A stretch of DNA of 64,000 bases from an uncultured Kiritimatiellota bacterium (GTDB taxonomy: Bacteria; Verrucomicrobiota; Kiritimatiellia; RFP12; UBA1067): the NCBI GenBank assembly GCA_934667425.1, contig CAKULV010000009.1:5350-69349 (forward strand), read 5' to 3'. The first letter of the stretch is position 1. Each line of letters begins with the position of its first letter. The notes under the pieces were generated by a model, which saw only the letters and a program-made list of their open reading frames with translations, did no database searches and had not been told where the DNA came from. The position numbers and the translations under genes were made by a program. Positions 17,342 through 58,387 of the stretch are shown here, piece after piece.

Positions 17342-17360
17342 TTGCCCCCCTACAATATCC

Positions 17361-17392
17361 CTAAAACCTATAACCTATAACCTAAAACCTAC
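17361..17392. repeat. Heptamer tandem repeat (CTAWAAC x4; AGGTTWT on the opposite strand)
   Basis: Sequence ctaaaac ctataac ctataac ctaaaac ctac. It overlaps the last codons and the stop (17375-17377) of the CE12-GH28 gene. It shares a 21-nt identity (gtaggttttaggttataggtt) with 34465-34485 in the opposite orientation. Confidence 0.85.
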
Positions 17393-22806: not shown

Positions 22807-25194
22807 CTATCGTCGCACCAGCTCGTAGTTCATCGTCGCGTCGGCAGGATCGCGGGCAACGTCGGCCGTGAAGCAGAGGCGGCCATCCTGCAGATGGCTC
22901 GGCACAACGCCTCGGCGGTTCCCGGCACAGTCGAGCGCGTACACGGTCCACTCCCCTGCCGCAAGCGACAGGTTCAGGTCCGCACGGCCCTTGCGCATCA
23001 GGTGAGGCATCTGTCCCCAGCGCAGAAGCACGGTGCGTGAATCGTCCGCGAACGCAGCGCCCGAATTCTGCACGTCGGTCTGATGGCACAGGAGGATGCG
23101 TCCCGATGCGGCAAGCGGATTGCCGTCAAGCGAACTCGCCCACACCGTCGCCGGCGCCCCAATGACGTTGGCCTCGAGGCACCCGGCGCGGATCTTCCCG
23201 GATTCGGCGAACACGCCGCACGTCCTCCCCGTTTCGATTCGCAGGGAACCTGTCGCGGGATCGATCTTCAGCGCGTCAGCGTCGCCGACATCGAGGTCTC
23301 CGCGCAGGAACAGGCATAGCGATGCGCGTTCGCCCGCGAGCGAGAGCGGATCTCCGCTCATGTCGAAGTATGTCATGGGCTTCGGACCGTACACGCCCTT
23401 GATGCCGTGGCTCCACGCGAAGCGCCAAAGCCCGTCAATATCCTCACGGGCGGCGAGCGCACCCGTCTCGATGCCGCCGAGGCTGCGGTATGCGCCCGGA
23501 CCGGAGAAGTTGTACTCCGTGATCACGAACGGCATAGCCTTCCCCATGCGGCGGCGGTTGCCGAGCGCCCAGAAGAGACCGTGCCTGTCGCGCTTCAGCG
23601 GATTGGTGTTCTGCAGTTCGCTCGGCAGGCTCCACTTCTGCTCGAGGAAGTGCGGGTGGTCAACGTAGAAGTGCTCGTCCGCGTAGTCGTACTCGTTGGC
23701 GCGCACCTCGTCAAATTCCTCCGGATATGCGTAGTTGTTCATGTTGGTGAGCAGGATGCGGCTCTTCATCTCGTCCCGCACCCACCGCGTCATGCGCCTC
23801 GCGAAGTCGCGTTCGTTCGCCAGGGTAAGCTCCTTGCGGCTGTTGCCCTCGTTGACGAGCGAGTAGAGAGGCATTGCCGGCTCGTCGGCATACCTGCGTC
23901 CGGTGTGCGTATTCACGTGCGAGAGGAAGTTCTTCGCGTAGTTCAGGAAGTTGGAGAACGCACCCTCGTGCGTCTCCACAAGCGTCTTGAACTCGCGCAT
24001 GCTAGCAAACCCCGGCTTGTCGATCCCCATGTCCCGGTATGCCACCCTGCGCGAAACGTAGAGGTCGGTCGTCATGTACACGCCATGCTTGATGCATGCG
24101 GCGACCATCGCGTCGAACCTCGACATCCTTTCCGGCTTGAGTTCCCCCCGGCTGTCGGCCAGCCCGCCGTCGTGGTGGTGGAACCTCACCGCATTGTATC
24201 CGATGCGGGCGAGGTTCGCCACGTATCGGTCGGCATCCTTCGCTGGCGGATAGTTTGATTCGCCGACGAAATTCACGCCGTAGAAGCGCTGCTTCACGCC
24301 AGGCAGGCTCTCGAACTCGAAATGCCCGTTGCGGACGACAAGCCATCCGTGCTTCCCGGCCGGCGCATCGTGCGGAACGACCTGCGAGAAATCCAGGGCA
24401 GACCCAGGCGCCGGGTCGTTCATCGCCTTGATGCGCGTCCATTCGCTCCCCTCTTCGATCACGTATTCGCCGGCGCAATACTCCACCGGCCCAGGCGTTT
24501 TCAGGTTGAAGTCCATAGAGAAGGCGTCCCCCCGGACGAGATCCGGCACGCTCCCCTTGCCTTCGAACGACACGCGGAGAGTGAACACGTCGATGTCGCT
24601 GCTCTTCCATTCGCGGTTGTCCTGAAGGTAGCATTTCATCGGCTTGGGGAAACGGAACGCAAGCGTCTGCACGCCATCCTTGTCGATGAGCGCGACCTCT
24701 CGCACCTTCTCGCGGAAGACCCCGATGCGGCCCTTCCTGTACTCCACGGGGAAAGGCTTTTCCATCCGGCCGTCCAGCACGGCCTTGCCGCCCGCGTAGC
24801 GCGAAACGGGGATGCGGGCGCAAACCACGGATCCGATCTGCCTTACGTTCGTCACGACCGTCTCGATCGAGACGGACACGTCGAGGGAACCGTCCGGGGC
24901 GACCTTCGCCGACGTGCTGCCGATGAAGTTCGTGCCGTTGTTGGGGTCGCCGTAGTTCCACTTCTCCGCAATCCGCCAGCGGCGCGAACCATCCGCCTCG
25001 GGACGGTAGCCGCCGTATGGCGTGCGCGATATCCAGCCGGGATAGAAGACTGTCGGCACGATCCTCACCTCCGCCTCCGGGACAAGTATGCGCCCCATCG
25101 GAGCAAGGCGCACCACGTCCGCCATCGACGGCGAGGGCGCCGTCGCTACGAAAGCGCAGCACAGCGTCAATAGCATGCGATTCATCTGCTTCAT
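22807..25194 (-). CDS. Secreted clan GH-A (GH5-like) glycoside hydrolase
   Basis: Signal-like MNRMLLTLCCAFVATAPSPSMA. FYGVNF...GYNAVRFHHHD, LVNEGN (acid/base NE) and VITEYNF (nucleophile E). The start could be the internal ATG at 25185. Confidence 0.8.
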   Translation of the reverse strand: MKQMNRMLLTLCCAFVATAPSPSMADVVRLAPMGRILVPEAEVRIVPTVFYPGWISRTPYGGYRPEADGSRRWRIAEKWNYGDPNNGTNFIGSTSAKVAPDGSLDVSVSIETVVTNVRQIGSVVCARIPVSRYAGGKAVLDGRMEKPFPVEYRKGRIGVFREKVREVALIDKDGVQTLAFRFPKPMKCYLQDNREWKSSDIDVFTLRVSFEGKGSVPDLVRGDAFSMDFNLKTPGPVEYCAGEYVIEEGSEWTRIKAMNDPAPGSALDFSQVVPHDAPAGKHGWLVVRNGHFEFESLPGVKQRFYGVNFVGESNYPPAKDADRYVANLARIGYNAVRFHHHDGGLADSRGELKPERMSRFDAMVAACIKHGVYMTTDLYVSRRVAYRDMGIDKPGFASMREFKTLVETHEGAFSNFLNYAKNFLSHVNTHTGRRYADEPAMPLYSLVNEGNSRKELTLANERDFARRMTRWVRDEMKSRILLTNMNNYAYPEEFDEVRANEYDYADEHFYVDHPHFLEQKWSLPSELQNTNPLKRDRHGLFWALGNRRRMGKAMPFVITEYNFSGPGAYRSLGGIETGALAAREDIDGLWRFAWSHGIKGVYGPKPMTYFDMSGDPLSLAGERASLCLFLRGDLDVGDADALKIDPATGSLRIETGRTCGVFAESGKIRAGCLEANVIGAPATVWASSLDGNPLAASGRILLCHQTDVQNSGAAFADDSRTVLLRWGQMPHLMRKGRADLNLSLAAGEWTVYALDCAGNRRGVVPSHLQDGRLCFTADVARDPADATMNYELVRR

Positions 25195-25230
25195 CCTTTC
25201 ACTTCAAAAATCCAATCCATCTCGTCCACC

Positions 25231-25595
25231 CGTGGCGACGGCGCCCTCGCCGTCGCGCCCCGTCCCCATCCGCTCCACCCGTGGCGACGGCGCCCCCGCC
25301 GTCGCGCCCCGTCCCCAGCCTCTCCTCCGTGGCGACGGCGCCCCCGCCGTCGCGCCGTCCCCAGCCTCTCCGCCGTAGCGACGGCGCCCTCGCCGTCGTG
25401 CCGTCCCCAGCCTCTCCACCCGTGGCGACGGCGCCCTCGCCGTCGCGCCGTCCCCATCCGCTCCTCCGTGGCGACGGCGCCCCGCCGTCGTGCCGTCCCC
25501 ATCCGCTCCTCCGTAGCGACGGCGCCCTCGCCGTCGTGCCATCCCCAGCCCCTCCTCCGTAGCGACGGCGCCCCGCCGTCGCGCCTCGCACAGCC
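25231..25595. repeat. Tandem array of 8 hairpin-containing 45-49 bp repeats (REP/BIME-like), non-coding
   Basis: Unit starts are 25231, 25280, 25328, 25374, 25421, 25467, 25512 and 25558 (the last truncated). Each unit is CGTRGCGACGGCG-CCC(T/C)-CGCCGTCGYGCC plus a C-rich linker, with a 9-bp stem GCGACGGCG/CGCCGTCGC. Confidence 0.92.
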
Positions 25596-25606
25596 AAAGC
25601 CACACT

Positions 25607-28600
25607 TCAGCGGACAACAATGGCCGTGCCGCGCCGCGCCTTCAGAGCGAGCGTCTTGCCGTCGTCAAGAAGGCGCAGGAGCCAGTTTGCGCTGGAAAGC
25701 TCCGGCAATGCTCCGCCAAAGCCGTCCGCTGCGGTCGCAAGCACGTATGGAGCCTTTTCCCGGTCAAGGTCATCCAGATTCTCAACCGTGACCTCGGCCC
25801 CGTCCCCAAAGACGAAGCGTCCGTTGATGGCGACCGGATCTGCCGCCGCCGCTACGCGCAGTTCACCCGTGAGGGTGTAGACGCCCCCAAGCAGATCAAG
25901 CGTCGTGCCGGACGCCATGCGGAGCGTGGCGAAAGTCGGCATCGTTGACCCGTCATATGGGTTCACGGTAGCGAGGCATCCGTCGCCAGAGTCCTTCAAT
26001 GGCACGTAGACGCCTACGTCCGTTGAATTCCGTCCCTGCGGATCGTATGCAAGGCCGACCACGTCCTTCCGGCTCGCACCTCCGTTGCCACCGGCGTTCC
26101 AGAGCTGGAGCAGGAACTTGTGCGCTCCCGGCGACAGCGTGACGGACATCCGGCGAAGCTCTCCCCATGTGGTGGAACCTTCCTTCTTGAGCTCTACCCC
26201 ATCCACGAAGATGTTCAGTACGTCGTCAAAGGCAAATGCGAAAGTCCAAGTGCAGTCCTCCGTCCCGCGGTTCCATATGTATCCCGAATACGAGACGTAG
26301 TGGTACGGCTGGAAATATCCGCCTGACACGCACGGTTCGTATGCATGGGATGGCTCAAGGTCGACCCCGCCATCCGTAAGCGCAACCTTATGGCTGTATT
26401 CCGTGGTGGCCTCGCCTTCGGCGTACTTGCGTTCGCCCCACAGGAACCCCGGCTTGAGGGCAGGCAGCTGAAGGGTGCCGCCCTGCACGTCAACCATTCC
26501 CGAAACGGACACAGGGGCATTGAGGAGGAACGTGCCGTCGCCTGTCTTGACGAGCGACGCCATCGTACCGCCAACATTCTCGACGGCCCCGGACGTCGCA
26601 GTCACCGCGCCGAAGTCGCGGGCAAATCCGCCGAAATCGATTGCGCCGCCGGCGACCTCTATCTGGGAGCCGGCGGGTATGGCATTCTCGTGGACAACCT
26701 TCAGGGTGCCGCCCTCCACGCGTGTGGCGCCGCCGTACGTGTTCGCGGCCTTCAGCGACAAGGTGCCGTCTCCCAGTTTCACAAGACCGCCCGAAGCCTG
26801 CTTATCGTCCGTCAGCGTCACGGTGAGCGGCACGTCGTTCGTGTATCCGCCACGGGTGAGGAGCGCGTTCATCGTGGTGTAGCCAAAGCCCGGCGATGTG
26901 ACGGTGAAGCCCGTGACGCGGTTGTTCACGGAATCGAATTCGGCGACGGCTGACGCCCCCTCGCCATCGCCACTGATCTCGACCATAGGTGCGCCAACCC
27001 ACGTGCCGTCCGCATACTCCGACCCTTCCGGGAACGCAAGCGACTTGAGGCCGCGTCCTGCCGGCGCATTGATCGGATGGTCGAGATTAACGTTGAGTCC
27101 AGACGTATCGAACTTCGCGCCGCCGGCGAACGCCGTCAGGGTAAGACGTTCAGGATCGCCGAAGAAGAAGCTCTCCGCCTTGTACGCGGCATAGTCCTTC
27201 TTCTTTGACCCGTGCCGATACTTGAGGATGCCGCCATCGAGGTTGACCCACGCCTTGTTCCCGTCGATTGCCTTGTTTTCGCCAACTCCCACGATCGTCT
27301 GCGCCTCGTTCGTCACGAGCTGTACCCAGTACGTCTCCAGGGAGCCGCCCGTGCGCAGGTTGAGGATCGTCTTCGCATTCGGCGCGGCCGCCATGTCAAG
27401 CCCGCAGTCGAGCTTCGCCTTGCCGCCCGCGAACGTAATCACATCCTCGTTCGCCCCGTACGAAAAGCCCTCGTACAGCGTCTTGCCTGATGTGATCCCT
27501 TCCCAGCTCTCTAATGCGCCGCCTGTCTGGTAGAATACGCTCTTTGCGCAGGCTGCCTTGCCTGAATGCATCCCGAACGTGATCGCCGAATTCTTAGACA
27601 GCACTTTCCCTCCCCTCACGTACCAGACCCCTCTTCCGTAACTCCCGCCGCCAGGCATGAACTGTCCAAGGATCATGAGACTGCCGCCCTGGTTCTCCAT
27701 GTAGCCGCTTCCGCCATTGCCGATATAGTTGTAGACGTACCTTGGATACGCAGTAGTTCCACCAGTGGAAAACACGGTCAGATCTCCACCGCGCTGTATT
27801 ACCGAACCATGGCAAGTCCTCTTGATGCTGTTGGGGCCGGTGACGACGCCAACCTGCAGCAATCCCGTAACGCACGCGCCTTCGCCTATCTCCAACACGC
27901 CCCGGCCTCCGCCCCATGTCGGGATCTCGGCAGACTCAACCGTTGCCTTGCGGGCCGGCCCTACGCAGATTACGCCGTCAAGCTTGCTCGCCTCGTTCGT
28001 GCCCCTCCCGGTCCAGTTCGTCGTGACGAGGGTGTCCGTTATTCGGAGTTTCGCGACTGCCGGGTACTGCGCCCCTACGTCAAGCCTGTTCGTCCCGAAC
28101 TCGACCTGTCCGGCGGACGCCCAATCCAGCGTGGAATCGCCAGTCACCAGCACGTCCGTGAAGGAGTGCTTCCTGTCCGCACCCGTCATCTTCACGTAGC
28201 CCTCGCGCTGGTAGTACTTTACGTCGTCCTGGTTGCCTGTAAGCGCGATCGCGCCTGTGCCTCCGACGGAGAGGCTGCGCCAGCCGCCGTTCCAGTCCGC
28301 ATCCACGGCAAGCGGTTCAGCCGCATCGCCATCAAGCGGAGAGAGAAGTATCTGAAGGTATTGGTTTTCCATGTGCGAGCAAAGTGCATCCCACGCCGCC
28401 ACCCGTGCGCTGGCGTCATCGGACGAAGACATGAGGACGTGCAGCCTCATCCCGTCGGAGTTTGACGCAACGTTTCCCCTTACATCGACAGGCCCGCCGA
28501 ACGACCAGCACTTGTTGGCGCCGCCTATGATCCTGCAGCCGTTCTCCGTAATCGTGACAGGCCCGTCGATCCGTGCCGCCGCCGTTTCGGGGGTTCCGCC

Positions 28601-29470
28601 GGACGCCGCCATCTGTTCGCTCAAAGTGCCGCCATCCAGCACAACGCCCCACGCGAGCGCAGGCGCGAACCTCTGTGAAGACAGGGTAGCGCCTTTACGG
28701 ACGGTGATGGCATTCTCGGAAGATCCGCCCATGATGACGTTTTGTCCCTCAAGGTAAAGGAATGCCGCAGTCCCCATGTTCGTCACGGTGATGTTTCCGG
28801 GGTTTTCAACCGTCACGCCAAGCATGCCGAATCCGCAAGCGATCTCAAGATTGTGGCCTTTCATGTCCAGCTTGCCCTGCCCCCCGCGAATGTCCCACCG
28901 GCGGAACACCCAATTGCCATTGGAGTTCTGATAGGCGACGCCTCCAAAGCGCGTATCGCCCGTCAGCGTGACGTTCTCGAACACCGCCCGCCACTGATCC
29001 TTTACGGTGCCGACATGGCGGAGCGCGCCCTCGCCGTTCATGCCCGTGCCGCATACGGATATGGCCCGCTTGCCGAAACGCAGATCCTCCGCGTCCGCGC
29101 CGAACTCCAGGGTCGCACCGTCCGACACAACGACAGCGCCTCTGTCGGCGTCGCCGAGCGCATTGGCGGCAAGACAGCGCAGATACCCGCCCTCAACGCG
29201 AATCGATCCCTTGTATCCGGCAAGAGACCTGCCGATGATGAAGCGGCCTTCGCCACGCTTGACGACATCCTCGCCCGAAGCGATGATCGCATTGGCCTCC
29301 TCGTCTGTCAACGTGCGGTCAACGCCGGCGTCTACAGTCACCTCCAGGGCCGAGGCCCCGCATGCGGCCATGCAGGCGAACGCAACGGACAGCGCAAGCC
29401 GCCCCCAAAGCGAACGCTCGATTCCGCCACTCAACGCACGCCTCTCCGTTTTTGTCCATTTTCCACTCAT
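25607..29470 (-). CDS. Giant secreted protein with autotransporter-associated beta-strand repeats (PATR) and a PA14-like domain near the C-terminus
   Basis: 1287 aa with a signal peptide. Repeated G-rich beta-helix-type repeats, e.g. NTYGGATRVEGGTLKV. PA14-like segment GYIWNRGTEDCTWTFAFAFDDVLNIFVDGVEL. Confidence 0.88.
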   Translation of the reverse strand: MSGKWTKTERRALSGGIERSLWGRLALSVAFACMAACGASALEVTVDAGVDRTLTDEEANAIIASGEDVVKRGEGRFIIGRSLAGYKGSIRVEGGYLRCLAANALGDADRGAVVVSDGATLEFGADAEDLRFGKRAISVCGTGMNGEGALRHVGTVKDQWRAVFENVTLTGDTRFGGVAYQNSNGNWVFRRWDIRGGQGKLDMKGHNLEIACGFGMLGVTVENPGNITVTNMGTAAFLYLEGQNVIMGGSSENAITVRKGATLSSQRFAPALAWGVVLDGGTLSEQMAASGGTPETAAARIDGPVTITENGCRIIGGANKCWSFGGPVDVRGNVASNSDGMRLHVLMSSSDDASARVAAWDALCSHMENQYLQILLSPLDGDAAEPLAVDADWNGGWRSLSVGGTGAIALTGNQDDVKYYQREGYVKMTGADRKHSFTDVLVTGDSTLDWASAGQVEFGTNRLDVGAQYPAVAKLRITDTLVTTNWTGRGTNEASKLDGVICVGPARKATVESAEIPTWGGGRGVLEIGEGACVTGLLQVGVVTGPNSIKRTCHGSVIQRGGDLTVFSTGGTTAYPRYVYNYIGNGGSGYMENQGGSLMILGQFMPGGGSYGRGVWYVRGGKVLSKNSAITFGMHSGKAACAKSVFYQTGGALESWEGITSGKTLYEGFSYGANEDVITFAGGKAKLDCGLDMAAAPNAKTILNLRTGGSLETYWVQLVTNEAQTIVGVGENKAIDGNKAWVNLDGGILKYRHGSKKKDYAAYKAESFFFGDPERLTLTAFAGGAKFDTSGLNVNLDHPINAPAGRGLKSLAFPEGSEYADGTWVGAPMVEISGDGEGASAVAEFDSVNNRVTGFTVTSPGFGYTTMNALLTRGGYTNDVPLTVTLTDDKQASGGLVKLGDGTLSLKAANTYGGATRVEGGTLKVVHENAIPAGSQIEVAGGAIDFGGFARDFGAVTATSGAVENVGGTMASLVKTGDGTFLLNAPVSVSGMVDVQGGTLQLPALKPGFLWGERKYAEGEATTEYSHKVALTDGGVDLEPSHAYEPCVSGGYFQPYHYVSYSGYIWNRGTEDCTWTFAFAFDDVLNIFVDGVELKKEGSTTWGELRRMSVTLSPGAHKFLLQLWNAGGNGGASRKDVVGLAYDPQGRNSTDVGVYVPLKDSGDGCLATVNPYDGSTMPTFATLRMASGTTLDLLGGVYTLTGELRVAAAADPVAINGRFVFGDGAEVTVENLDDLDREKAPYVLATAADGFGGALPELSSANWLLRLLDDGKTLALKARRGTAIVVR

Positions 29471-34464: not shown

Positions 34465-34510
34465 GTAGGTTTTAGGTTATAGGTTTCAGGTTTTAGGTTT
34501 CAGGTTTCAG
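34465..34510. repeat. Heptamer tandem repeat AGGTTTN x6
   Basis: Sequence aggtttt aggttat aggtttc aggtttt aggtttc aggtttc, starting 13 nt from the HAD gene ATG. Same family as 17361-17392, inverted. Confidence 0.85.
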
Positions 34511-34614
34511 CAGACGCCCAAAAACGCCGGATTCGCGGGAGGGCCGCAATTCATTGCGACCGTTGGCACGACACCTCGGATTCGCCGCCACAAATCATCG
34601 AATGCCTAAATTTT

Positions 34615-34645
34615 AAAATGCAATCGTAAATCGTAAATCGTAAAT
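34615..34645. repeat. AATGCAAT + (CGTAAAT)x3 heptamer repeat, solo copy of the 58.1-58.4 kb arm motif
   Basis: aaaatgcaatcgtaaatcgtaaatcgtaaat, lying 13 nt from the tsaD stop. Near-identical to 58337-58372. Confidence 0.85.
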
Positions 34646-58117: not shown

Positions 58118-58387
58118 ATTTACGATTTTTCGATTTACGATTTACGATTGCATTGGAGGATTTGCGATTTTTCGATTTACGATTGCATTTAGCCATTTAT
58201 AGATTTAATGATTTACCGTAGCGACGACGCCCTCGTCGTCGTGCGGCGATTTCATCGAAATCGCCCTACCAATGCGTTGCGCAAAGCTGATTCGTACAAG
58301 ATCGGTACCCCAAATACTTAAATCAACAAATGACTAAATGCAATCGTAAATCATAAATCGTAAATCGTAAATCTTGAATCATGAATA
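58118..58387. repeat. MITE-like composite element: AT-rich heptamer arms in inverted orientation flanking a GC-rich hairpin core
   Basis: Left arm 58118-58216: (ATTTACG)n-ATTGCATT twice, then agccatttatagatttaatgattt. Right arm 58311-58386 is its imperfect reverse complement, with a 19-nt perfect match gatttacgattgcatttag and about 85% identity over about 45 nt. It fills the whole gap between two giant genes. Confidence 0.8.
58217..58265. repeat. Two adjacent perfect hairpins; the first is a diverged copy of the 25.2-25.6 kb array unit
   Basis: cgtaGCGACGACGccctCGTCGTCGTgc (58217-58244), and GGCGATTTC-atc-GAAATCGCC (58245-58265). Confidence 0.85.

What the first reader, a model, noticed from the sequence alone, without database searches (positions are those of the whole stretch)
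25195..25606. Eight-unit tandem array of GC-rich hairpin repeats fills the gap between two secreted-protein genes
The 412-bp gap lies between the stop of the 1287-aa PATR/PA14 gene (25607) and the start of the GH5-like gene (25194). About 365 bp of it are 8 head-to-tail repeat units of 49, 48, 46, 47, 46, 45 and 46 nt, plus a truncated last unit. Each unit is CGTRGCGACGGCG-CCC(T/C)-CGCCGTCGYGCC, a perfect 9-bp stem with a 3-4 nt loop, followed by a 20-24 nt C-rich linker. The linker comes in two interleaved flavours, CCCCATCCGCTCC and CCCCAGCCTCTCC. Unit lengths vary and are not multiples of 3, so this is not a coding repeat. The linkers are conserved, so it is not CRISPR. On the transcribed (minus) strand the units read as G-runs plus SD-like GGAGG, and some read GGAGGAGCGGATG. 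The architecture resembles enterobacterial REP/BIME clusters, but I do not recognise the sequence family. It could act as an mRNA stabiliser, an attenuator or terminator stack, or a protein-binding array that sets relative expression of the two flanking genes.
Basis: seen in the sequence. Interest (0 to 1): 0.7.

Follow-up and report, generated by a model that had tools for sequence, protein, structure and literature searches.

The report
Strain-variable array of REP hairpin repeats
The eight GC-rich hairpins between the two secreted-protein genes are copies of a REP-type mobile palindrome (the kind spread by RAYT transposases) that has been amplified in place, and related gut strains carry 1 to 8 copies, so this is a known kind of repeat in a poorly studied phylum, not a new system.

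Summary
A 356-bp head-to-tail array (25230-25585) holds 8 hairpin units of 45-49 nt, about 400-fold more pattern matches than chance gives.

The unit is a GT[A/G]G-tagged GC-rich palindrome, which is the signature of REP elements. Its stem shows a compensatory G:C/A:T alternative (135 of 148 copies paired).

In several contigs, including human-gut ones, inverted copies flank a Y1 (IS200-like) transposase gene whose best NCBIfam match is the REP-associated tyrosine transposase. That is the defining REP-RAYT arrangement. No RAYT lies in the 64-kb window itself.

The array is a copy-number polymorphism. Conspecific strains (97-99% identical flanks) carry 1, 2, 3, 7 or 8 units at this exact site. 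More distant orthologous loci have none.

A ninth, inverted copy sits in frame inside the signal peptide of the downstream GH5-like gene, and a solitary copy lies at 58219-58245.

The effect on expression is untested. There are no U-tracts, so the hairpins are not intrinsic terminators. A stack of transcribed hairpins affecting mRNA stability or translation is the likeliest effect, if there is any.

Verdict: a new member of a known kind, of modest interest.

The parts
25230..25585 (+). Head-to-tail array of 8 REP units. All units carry the tag GT[A/G]G on the + strand, so they are inverted relative to the two minus-strand genes. Each unit is tag + 8-9 bp stem CGACGGCG/CGCCGTCG + loop CCC[T/C] or CCC + C-rich linker.
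   Evidence: TRF; sequence; repeat families; hairpin scan.
25231..25258 (+). Unit 1, the unit nearest the GH5-like gene (CGTGGCGACGGCGCCCTCGCCGTCGCGC). It is the upstream partner of the tail-to-tail inverted pair with the signal-peptide copy.
   Evidence: (I3, 96% complementary, 80 nt between the arms).
25558..25585 (+). Unit 8, the unit nearest the PATR gene. It has a 3-nt loop and is followed by unique DNA (CTCGCACAGCC) instead of a linker.
25125..25150 (-). Inverted REP copy (minus strand reads CGTAGCGACGGCGCCCTCGCCGTCG). It lies in frame in the signal peptide of the GH5-like gene and encodes VATAPSPS just before the predicted cleavage site (...SMA|DVV). It is 25/25 identical to unit 4.
   Evidence: (I2). 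The segment is absent from orthologues at 65-85% identity.
25151..25230 (-). 80-nt spacer between the inverted pair. It contains the Shine-Dalgarno-like AAAGGA, the start codon(s) at 25194 and 25185, and the N-terminal half of the signal peptide.
58219..58245 (+). Solitary REP of the A:T stem sub-family (CCGTAGCGACGACGCCCTCGTCGTCGTGC). It is intergenic and sits between heptamer arrays.
25607..29470 (-). Upstream gene, a 1287-aa PATR-repeat protein. Its stop codon lies 23 nt before unit 8.
22807..25194 (-). Downstream gene, a 795-aa (or 792-aa) secreted GH5-like protein.

Best explanation
The array is a locally amplified REP (repetitive extragenic palindrome) of the GTAG/GTGG-tagged class. This class of small non-autonomous DNA repeats is associated with, and thought to be mobilised by, RAYT (REP-associated tyrosine, Y1/HUH) transposases.

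Likely history (inferred). One REP sat between the PATR gene and the GH5-like gene, forming a tail-to-tail inverted pair with a second REP that had landed in frame in the signal-peptide codons. The upstream REP plus about 20 nt of linker was then duplicated head-to-tail. Slipped-strand mispairing or unequal recombination between adjacent direct repeats is the probable cause. The result is a copy-number-variable locus with 1-8 units among strains of one gut Kiritimatiellia-like species.

Shown: family membership features, dispersal, stem covariation, RAYT association in related contigs, and copy-number polymorphism.

Inferred: the amplification mechanism, and any effect on expression.

Likely effect, if any. 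When transcribed with the flanking genes, each unit forms a -17 to -23 kcal/mol hairpin without a U-tract. I think the likeliest effect is a hairpin stack in the intercistronic RNA that protects the upstream 3' end from exonucleases. By pairing with the complementary REP inside the coding sequence, it may also occlude the ribosome-binding site of the GH5-like gene. I put roughly 0.3 on any selected regulatory role. Otherwise the array is a near-neutral expansion.
For: - Anatomy. All 10 window copies carry CGT[A/G]G immediately 5' of an 8-9 bp GC-rich stem with a 3-4 nt loop. This matches the published definition of GTAG-tagged REPs, which includes GTGG tags in the verrucomicrobium Opitutus terrae (PMC3733652).
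- Dispersal.
- Extragenic bias. 87 of 149 copies lie outside crude gene calls, although about 80% of that DNA is called coding.
- Stem covariation at a position the search left free: G:C 89, A:T 46, A.C 7, G.T 6, Fisher p 4e-24.
- RAYT link. ORFs in L107, L019, L024 and L150 hit Pfam Y1_Tnp above its gathering score. Their best NCBIfam hit is REP_Tyr_transpos, E 2.7e-17 to 6.6e-14. Homologues are named 'REP element-mobilizing transposase RayT' by JGI.
- RAYT flanks. In L107 and L150 the gene is flanked by this REP in inverted orientation, with 5 upstream and 8 downstream copies in mostly alternating orientation. The GTGG sub-type there is 31/31 to 40/42 identical to the window units.
- Copy-number polymorphism. 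Identical flanks hold 1 (L136, L004/5), 2 (L149), 3 (L140), 7 (L147) or 8 (window, L003, about 8 in L141) units in strains 97-99% identical to the window.
- No array in more distant relatives. Orthologous loci at 82-85% protein identity have none.
- The 46-nt unit's linker is not found in any other REP locus, so amplification was local.
- Tandem head-to-tail arrays of this hairpin recur elsewhere: period 30-37 nt x 2-4, and 116 nt x 5.
Against: - No RAYT gene lies in the 64-kb window. I could not show that the RAYT-bearing contigs come from the same genome. They share only the REP type, the habitat and the study cohorts.
- NCBIfam scores (52-63 bits) are below the curated equivalog cut-off of 80.
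- Genome-wide copy number in this organism is unknown.
- A pure head-to-tail array is atypical. BIMEs alternate in orientation, and head-tail dimers are reported as rare (PMC3733652).
- The similarity between linker and flank that I expected from 'REP plus flanking DNA' duplication is not significant.
- All expression effects are predictions from folding only.
Confidence: 0.82

Rival explanations
1. Contingency (phase or rheostat) switch. Gain or loss of 46-nt units (46 = 1 mod 3) changes whether a uORF starting at a Shine-Dalgarno-like GGAGGAGCGGAUG in the linker ends at the AUGA overlapping the GH5-like start. It also changes how many upstream units can pair with the REP inside the signal-peptide codons. 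Copy number would then tune translation of the secreted hydrolase.
For: - Copy number varies from 1 to 8 between near-identical strains.
- A uORF ending at the ATGA exists in the 8-, 3- and 2-unit alleles but not in the 1- and 7-unit alleles.
- The predicted minimum-energy fold pairs the proximal unit with the signal-peptide REP in a 21-25 bp duplex that encloses the RBS and AUG. Its z-score against shuffles is -3.4.
Against: - All three minus-strand frames are open across the G-rich array simply because T is rare there, so uORFs are expected by chance.
- There are no expression data.
- Local hairpins would form first during transcription.
- Shine-Dalgarno usage in this phylum was not examined.
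Confidence: 0.08
2. DNA-level protein-binding array, by analogy with enterobacterial BIMEs that bind gyrase, IHF or Pol I. It would organise supercoiling or act as a domain boundary between the two genes.
For: - Regular 46-nt spacing of identical palindromes.
- No transcript-strand bias in the family.
Against: - No binding data.
- Copy number is not conserved, and one unit suffices in some strains.
- The orientation is uniform rather than the alternating orientation of BIMEs.
Confidence: 0.06
3. Invertible segment (inverton). The inverted REP pair (25126-25150 and 25231-25255) would serve as recombination sites that flip the 80-nt segment carrying the RBS and start codon, switching the GH5-like gene on and off.
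For: - A 25-nt inverted repeat with 96-100% complementarity brackets the translation start.
- Some strains have a serine recombinase gene just upstream of the PATR gene.
Against: - All 9 contigs that span the spacer (window, L003, L004, L005, L136, L140, L141, L147, L149) have it in the same orientation.
- The recombinase is absent from the window and accompanies a restriction-enzyme gene, which looks like an unrelated island.
Confidence: 0.02
4. Assembly artefact, CRISPR array, or coding repeat.
For: Short-read assemblies often break in the array: L137-L139, L142-L146 and L148 end inside it.
Against: - A second strain (99.36% identical) has an identical 8-unit array in an independent assembly.
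- Several complete alleles are spanned by contigs.
- The linkers are conserved, not unique spacers.
- Units are 45-49 nt, and alleles differ by steps that are not multiples of 3.
Confidence: 0.02

Closest known systems
GTAG-tagged REPs (Di Nocera, De Gregorio & Rocco 2013, PMC3733652), including the GTGG-tagged GTAG-20 family of Opitutus terrae (Verrucomicrobia) and the SMAG repeats of Stenotrophomonas
   Same: - An unpaired GT[A/G]G tag at one end of a 6-9 bp GC-rich stem with a short loop.
- Sub-families with complementary stem changes.
- Mostly intergenic, with some in-frame intragenic copies, including copies at protein N-termini.
- Clusters made of units reiterated in tandem.
- Association with RAYT genes.
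   Different: - The stem sequence CGACG[G/A]CG and the host lineage (gut/rumen Kiritimatiellia-like bacteria) are not, as far as I could check, among the described families. Their Figure 1 is not readable here, and a full-text search for Kiritimatiell* plus REP found nothing.
- This array is purely head-to-tail, an arrangement that paper calls absent or under-represented.
REP-RAYT / REPIN systems (Nunvar 2010, PMC2817692; Bertels & Rainey 2011, PMC3116915)
   Same: - A single Y1 transposase gene flanked by cognate REPs in inverted orientation (L107/L150, L024).
- REP pairs in inverted orientation about 40 nt apart around it.
- The proximal array unit plus the signal-peptide REP form an inverted pair 80 nt apart.
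   Different: - RAYT was not shown in the window's own genome.
- The 8-unit array is not a REPIN. It is a direct repeat, and its spacer is unique to this locus.
Enterobacterial BIMEs (bacterial interspersed mosaic elements)
   Same: Clustered, regularly spaced REPs with conserved inter-REP motifs, sitting between co-directional genes. The window's other intergenic mosaics (heptamer arrays plus several hairpin types) are also BIME-like in being modular.
   Different: - BIMEs alternate REP orientation and use defined linker motifs, some of which bind IHF. Here all units point the same way.
- The linker occurs nowhere else.
Bacterial VNTR / contingency loci
   Same: Copy number differs between near-identical strains at a fixed site next to a surface or secreted protein gene. 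Unit length is not a multiple of 3.
   Different: The unit is a 46-nt mobile-element-derived hairpin rather than a 1-10 nt simple repeat. No phenotype switch has been shown.

Membership tests
REP (GTAG-tagged repetitive extragenic palindrome) | Short (about 20-40 nt) GC-rich imperfect palindrome able to form a stem-loop | tested here: met
   Stems of 8-9 bp and loops of 3-4 nt in all 10 window copies. Single units fold at -17 to -23 kcal/mol.
REP (GTAG-tagged repetitive extragenic palindrome) | Conserved unpaired GTAG-type tetranucleotide at one end | tested here: met
   The window search pattern did not include the tag, yet every copy has CGT[A/G]G directly 5' of the stem. In the metagenome hits the tag was part of the pattern, so its presence there is by construction. 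Of those, 92 are GTAG and 56 are GTGG.
REP (GTAG-tagged repetitive extragenic palindrome) | Many dispersed copies per genome (typically more than 100) | tested here: inconclusive
   There are 3 loci (10 copies) in 64 kb. The complete genome of this organism was not available, and it is not among the GTDB representatives scanned.
REP (GTAG-tagged repetitive extragenic palindrome) | Predominantly extragenic | tested here: met
   87 of 149 copies fall outside crude GC3-based gene calls, against about 20% non-coding DNA in the same loci. Exceptions are in-frame copies in signal peptides.
REP-RAYT system | Cognate Y1/HUH transposase gene (RAYT) flanked by the REPs in inverted orientation | tested here: met
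   Met in related contigs. L107/L150, L024 and L019 ORFs hit PF01797 at 27.5-38.8 bits against a cut-off of 23. Their best NCBIfam hit is REP_Tyr_transpos. Inverted REPs lie immediately on both sides.
REP-RAYT system | RAYT present in the same genome as the REPs under study | not testable with these tools
   tblastn and phmmer with E. coli RayT find nothing in the window. The L150 RAYT comes from the same human-gut study cohorts as the window-species contigs, but not from demonstrably the same genome.
REP-RAYT system | Protein reaches NCBIfam's curated REP_Tyr_transpos equivalog score | tested here: not met
   Scores are 52-63 bits against a cut-off of 80. The proteins are divergent RAYT-like Y1 transposases rather than certified equivalogs.
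BIME | Regularly spaced REPs in alternating orientation | tested here: not met
   All 8 array units have the same orientation. Mostly alternating orientation is seen only around the RAYT gene in L150.
CRISPR array | Identical repeats separated by unique spacers of similar length | tested here: not met
   Linkers are 17-20 nt and come in two conserved flavours.
Intrinsic (Rho-independent) terminator | GC-rich hairpin followed by a T/U-run | tested here: not met
   No terminator-like site lies inside 25195-25606 on either strand. On the mRNA strand the hairpins are followed by ACGG...
Any Rfam RNA family | Covariance-model match | tested here: not met
   No match at gathering score in the whole window, and none at E<=1 in 24900-25900.
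Inverton | Both orientations of the segment between the inverted repeats observed | tested here: not met
   Nine spanning contigs all have the same orientation. Read-level data are not available.

The most novel reading that the evidence does not exclude
The REP array is a mobile-element-derived contingency locus. Slippage in 46-nt steps (1 mod 3) switches a Shine-Dalgarno-plus-AUG uORF in and out of the frame that terminates on the GH5-like start codon. It also changes pairing with the REP copy embedded in the signal-peptide codons. Strains of a human-gut Kiritimatiellia would then vary output of a secreted glycoside hydrolase.

More broadly, REP hairpins in this lineage may have been co-opted as ready-made signal-peptide segments (VATAPSPS, preceded in some genes by a second hairpin encoding GRAALVAAA) in many large secreted proteins.
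Probability: 0.08. Interest if true: 0.65.

Novelty: new member of a known kind. Interest (0 to 1): 0.33.

Why it matters
It extends the REP-RAYT type of repeat to gut and rumen Kiritimatiellia-like bacteria, where I found no prior description.

It explains why short-read assemblies of these genomes break at many intergenic sites. Most RAYT contigs are about 1 kb, and many contigs end inside this array.

It provides a ready strain-typing marker: 1-8 units at a fixed locus.

It also gives a clean natural series of alleles (1, 2, 3, 7 and 8 hairpins between the same two genes). With these one could test, in one system, the old question of whether REP hairpins actually change mRNA stability or downstream translation.

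The in-frame use of the REP in signal peptides is a small but concrete example of mobile DNA contributing coding sequence.

Tried and rejected
- Rfam, both at gathering score over the whole window and at E<=1 around the array: nothing.
- Promoter and terminator scan: no sigma-70-like promoter and no terminator in the gap.
- Genome-contig scan: only a chance coding hit in Agromyces and one Verrucomicrobia MAG. The source genome is not among the species representatives.
- 'The linker is duplicated proximal flank': alignment scores are no better than shuffles for 4 of 5 linker variants. Dropped.
- 'The 46-nt unit is itself a dispersed element': the linker is absent from all other REP loci. Rejected.
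- 'REPs prefer 3' ends or one transcript strand': gaps holding REPs are uni 16 / conv 7 / div 9 against a background of 150 / 44 / 44. The tag strand equals the gene strand in 11 cases and opposes it in 7. No bias, though the gene calls are crude and the numbers small.
- Inverton: no flipped contigs.
- G-quadruplex on the G-rich mRNA strand: considered only by eye. G-runs are separated by 14-27 nt, which is not canonical. Not pursued.
- Building a covariance model: judged unnecessary, because exact-pattern scans and a perfect-hairpin scan already recovered the family. Diverged copies in the window may therefore be undercounted.

Full report

Yes. The sequence at 25195-25606 contains one tandem array. 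TRF places it at 25230-25585, with period 46, 7.7 copies, 90% matches and score 497.

The core GCGACGGCGCCCYCGCCGTCGY, with up to 3 mismatches, matches 8 times in the window against 0.02 expected from shuffles. Two further array units with 3-nt loops bring the array to 8 hairpins.

The gap is bounded by ORF 25607-29470(-) (Pfam PATR) and ORF 22807-25194(-) (weak Pfam GH5). An independent gene call on another contig shows the same 412-nt gap.

Minor corrections:
- Three units (4, 6 and 7) have G.T as the ninth stem pair.
- The linker flavours run A B B B A A B'.
- PA14 is not detected.

One is inverted, at 25125-25150, inside the downstream gene. The other is solitary, at 58219-58245.

Half of all perfect hairpins with stems of 8 bp or more in the 64 kb belong to this family.

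The array is not an assembly artefact. Contig L003, from a strain 99.36% identical over 21 kb, carries an identical 8-unit array.

**2. What is the unit?**

Every window copy reads C-GT[A/G]G, then CGACG[G/A]CG, then CCC[T/C] or CCC, then CG[C/T]CGTCG. That is an unpaired GTAG-type tag next to a short GC-rich palindrome. This is the published signature of GTAG-tagged REPs. That class includes PVC bacteria, and in Opitutus terrae most tags are GTGG (PMC3733652).

I tested the defining features one by one.

*Dispersal.*
- The exact pattern occurs in at least 120 metagenome contigs.
- That gives 159 hits, 148-149 in distinct contexts (the two counts differ in how duplicate contexts were removed).
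- The contigs come largely from gut- and rumen-type assemblies, including at least 15 contigs of one co-assembly.
- Among species-representative genomes, only a Verrucomicrobia MAG carries it, inside a roughly 205-nt composite tandem repeat. An Agromyces hit lies in coding sequence and looks like chance.

*Location.* 87 of 149 copies lie outside crude GC3-based gene calls, although about 80% of the DNA in those loci is called coding.

*Structure.* At the stem position that the search pattern left free on both arms, the counts are G:C 89, A:T 46, A.C 7 and G.T 6 (Fisher p = 4e-24). The window itself holds both sub-types: the array, and the copy at 58219. G.T is no commoner than A.C, which gives no hint of RNA-specific selection.

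*Transposase.*
- tblastn and phmmer with E. coli RayT against all fetched loci picked out ORFs in L107, L019 and L024.
- All three exceed Pfam's Y1_Tnp gathering score.
- Their best NCBIfam match is REP_Tyr_transpos (E 2.7e-17 to 6.6e-14), although below the curated equivalog cut-off.
- Homologues of the L107 protein are named 'REP element-mobilizing transposase RayT' by JGI.
- In L107, and in the 66-kb human-gut contig L150 that encodes a 99%-identical protein, the gene is flanked by this REP in inverted orientation. There are 5 copies upstream and 8 downstream, in mostly alternating orientation.
- The GTGG sub-type there (cccgtggcgacggcgccctcgccgtcgcggcag) is 31/31 to 40/42 identical to the window's units.

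This is the arrangement that defines REP-RAYT systems (PMC2817692).

What I could not do is show a RAYT in the window's own genome.

**3. What is the array?**

The window belongs to a Kiritimatiellia-like bacterium from human-gut metagenomes (named hits; sample names).

Looking up exact variants of the upstream PATR protein gave many contigs from strains 97-99% identical to the window. Between identical flanks (...GCTGA-agtgtggctttggctgtgcgagg on one side...GATTGGATTTTTGAAGTGAAAGGATGA on the other) they carry the following:

| Units | Contigs |
|---|---|
| 1 | L136, L004/L005 |
| 2 | L149 |
| 3 | L140 |
| 7 | L147 |
| 8 | window, L003, and about 8 with a small internal deletion in L141 |

Other contigs end inside the array.

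One and the same PATR protein sequence (P0124) is linked to a 1-unit allele (L136) and to alleles with at least 4 units (L137). The changes are therefore recent.

Orthologous GH5-like genes at 82-85% protein identity sit behind different upstream genes, with gaps of 0-136 nt and no array.

The linker of the 46-nt unit occurs in no other REP locus, so the amplification happened in place. My guess that the linker is duplicated flanking DNA did not survive a shuffle test.

Head-to-tail arrays of the same hairpin with other periods recur in other contigs: 30-37 nt x 2-4, 116 nt x 5, and 305 nt x 2.3. Tandem amplification is therefore a habit of this family, even though head-tail arrangements are described as rare for REPs in general.

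**4. The inverted copy in the signal peptide.**

On the coding strand, 25150-25125 reads CGTAGCGACGGCGCCCTCGCCGTCG. It is translated as ...LLTLCCAF-VATAPSPS-MA|DVVRLAPMGR.

All orthologues start their mature part at ADVVRLAPMGR and have ordinary signal peptides without this segment, for example MKSVAVLIGICCTAVAAQA|DVV. The REP is therefore an in-frame insertion that lengthens the signal peptide. It is present in every conspecific allele, including the 1-unit allele.

With the proximal array unit it forms a tail-to-tail inverted pair 80 nt apart. The pair brackets the Shine-Dalgarno-like AAAGGA and the start codon.

RNA folding of 25100-25290(-) predicts that the two copies pair with each other in a 21-25 bp duplex that encloses the translation start (-92.4 kcal/mol, z = -3.4). 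This is a prediction only.

**5. How it most likely works.**

*Shown:* it is a REP-family element, locally amplified, and copy-number polymorphic.

*Inferred from family knowledge:* the original copies were deposited by a RAYT acting on single-stranded hairpin DNA. The array grows and shrinks by slippage or unequal exchange between adjacent direct repeats. The partial unit in L141, L142 and L145 looks like a slippage scar.

*Function.* Each unit is a stable hairpin on either strand (-17 to -23 kcal/mol). The whole gap folds better than shuffles on both strands (z = -5.7 and -7.2). No unit has a U-tract, so these are not intrinsic terminators.

Three observations suggest a mobile DNA repeat whose local effects are incidental:
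- The family shows no bias for gene-end type or transcript strand.
- One unit is evidently sufficient.
- Copy number drifts between strains.

If it does anything here, the likeliest effects are protection of the upstream mRNA 3' end and damping of GH5-like translation, the latter through pairing with the REP inside the coding sequence. REPs have been hypothesised to act in mRNA stabilisation, termination and supercoiling (abstract of PMC3733652).

**6. Rivals.**

*Contingency switch.* This is the most interesting alternative. 46 = 1 mod 3. A uORF beginning at GGAGGAGCGGATG ends on the ATGA at the GH5-like start in the 8-, 3- and 2-unit alleles, but not in the 1- and 7-unit alleles. However, all minus-strand frames are open across this T-poor sequence, so this may be chance.

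*BIME-like protein-binding role.* Untested.

*Inverton.* Unsupported. Nine spanning contigs all have the same orientation.

*Artefact, CRISPR or coding repeat.* Excluded.

**7. Comparison and novelty.**

The closest known things are:
- GTAG-tagged REPs (PMC3733652);
- REP-RAYT/REPIN systems (PMC2817692, PMC3116915);
- BIMEs, more loosely.

The element meets the REP features I could test. It fails the BIME orientation rule. The transposases fall short of NCBIfam's equivalog score.

I found no paper linking Kiritimatiell* with REPs in the held library.

I therefore rate it a new member of a known kind. It has two slightly unusual traits: a purely head-to-tail, strain-variable array, and in-frame use of the REP in signal peptides.

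Interest is modest (0.33). It is useful for assembly, strain typing and as a natural allele series, but not surprising to a specialist.

Noticed in passing
window 17360-17391, 34466-34507, 34622-34645, 58118-58184, 58342-58386: Tandem heptamer arrays (CCTAAAA/TAGGTTT and ATTTACG/AATCGTA, 3-9 copies) sit in short intergenic gaps. They often occur as an inverted pair bracketing GC-rich hairpins. The same heptamers, plus a conserved 'attgcatttgaggatttgc' motif, the REP and a second hairpin, recur as a modular mosaic in many metagenome contigs (L022, L025, L030, L043, L080, L098, L117 and others). This is a second dispersed repeat system, of unknown role.
   Followed up: partly
window 25125-25150; L041/L104/L114, L101, L102, L106, L108, L121, L053: The REP hairpin is read in frame as (C)VATAPSPS[F/W/M]A at the end of the signal peptides of unrelated large secreted proteins. 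In L102, L106, L108 and L053 a second hairpin (GGCCGCGCTTGTCGCGGCC) just upstream encodes GRAALVAAA. In those genes the hydrophobic core and cleavage region of the signal peptide are encoded by a two-hairpin doublet that also occurs in non-coding arrays (L045, L125).
   Followed up: partly
L024 577-601; L019 (equivalent codons): The RAYT genes of L024 and L019 contain the REP-like hairpin inside their own coding sequence (LR[S/N]DGA[L/F]AVV). The L107/L150 RAYT does not, and is much less GC-rich by eye than the 63%-GC contig around it.
   Followed up: no
window 34538-34565 and 58245-58265: Two other hairpin types sit next to or near the REP family. One is GGGAGGGCCGCAATTCATTGCGACC, which matches the 'gggagggtcgcaatccattgcgacc' module seen beside REPs in many loci. 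The other is GGCGATTTCATCGAAATCGCC, which is also seen in L027 and L078.
   Followed up: no
L140-L144, about 280-1452 (directly upstream of the PATR gene): Some conspecific strains carry a 359-390 aa serine recombinase (PF00239), and in L143 a TaqI_C-domain gene, where the window has the fumarase genes. This is a strain-specific island next to the locus.
   Followed up: no
L002 1-700 (Verrucomicrobia bacterium UBA6982): A roughly 205-nt composite unit is repeated about 3 times after a gene stop. It contains the same GTGG-tagged hairpin, a second GTAG-tagged palindrome (GTAGAGCCCGCGCGCCGCGCGGGCC) and a third hairpin (GCGGGCTGGAAGCCCGC).
   Followed up: no
window 25185-25194: The GH5-like gene has two in-frame ATGs, at 25194 and 25185. 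Close strains have AGG as the second codon and are called from the second ATG (792 aa). The AAAGGA motif is better spaced for the second ATG, so the true start may be 25185.
   Followed up: no
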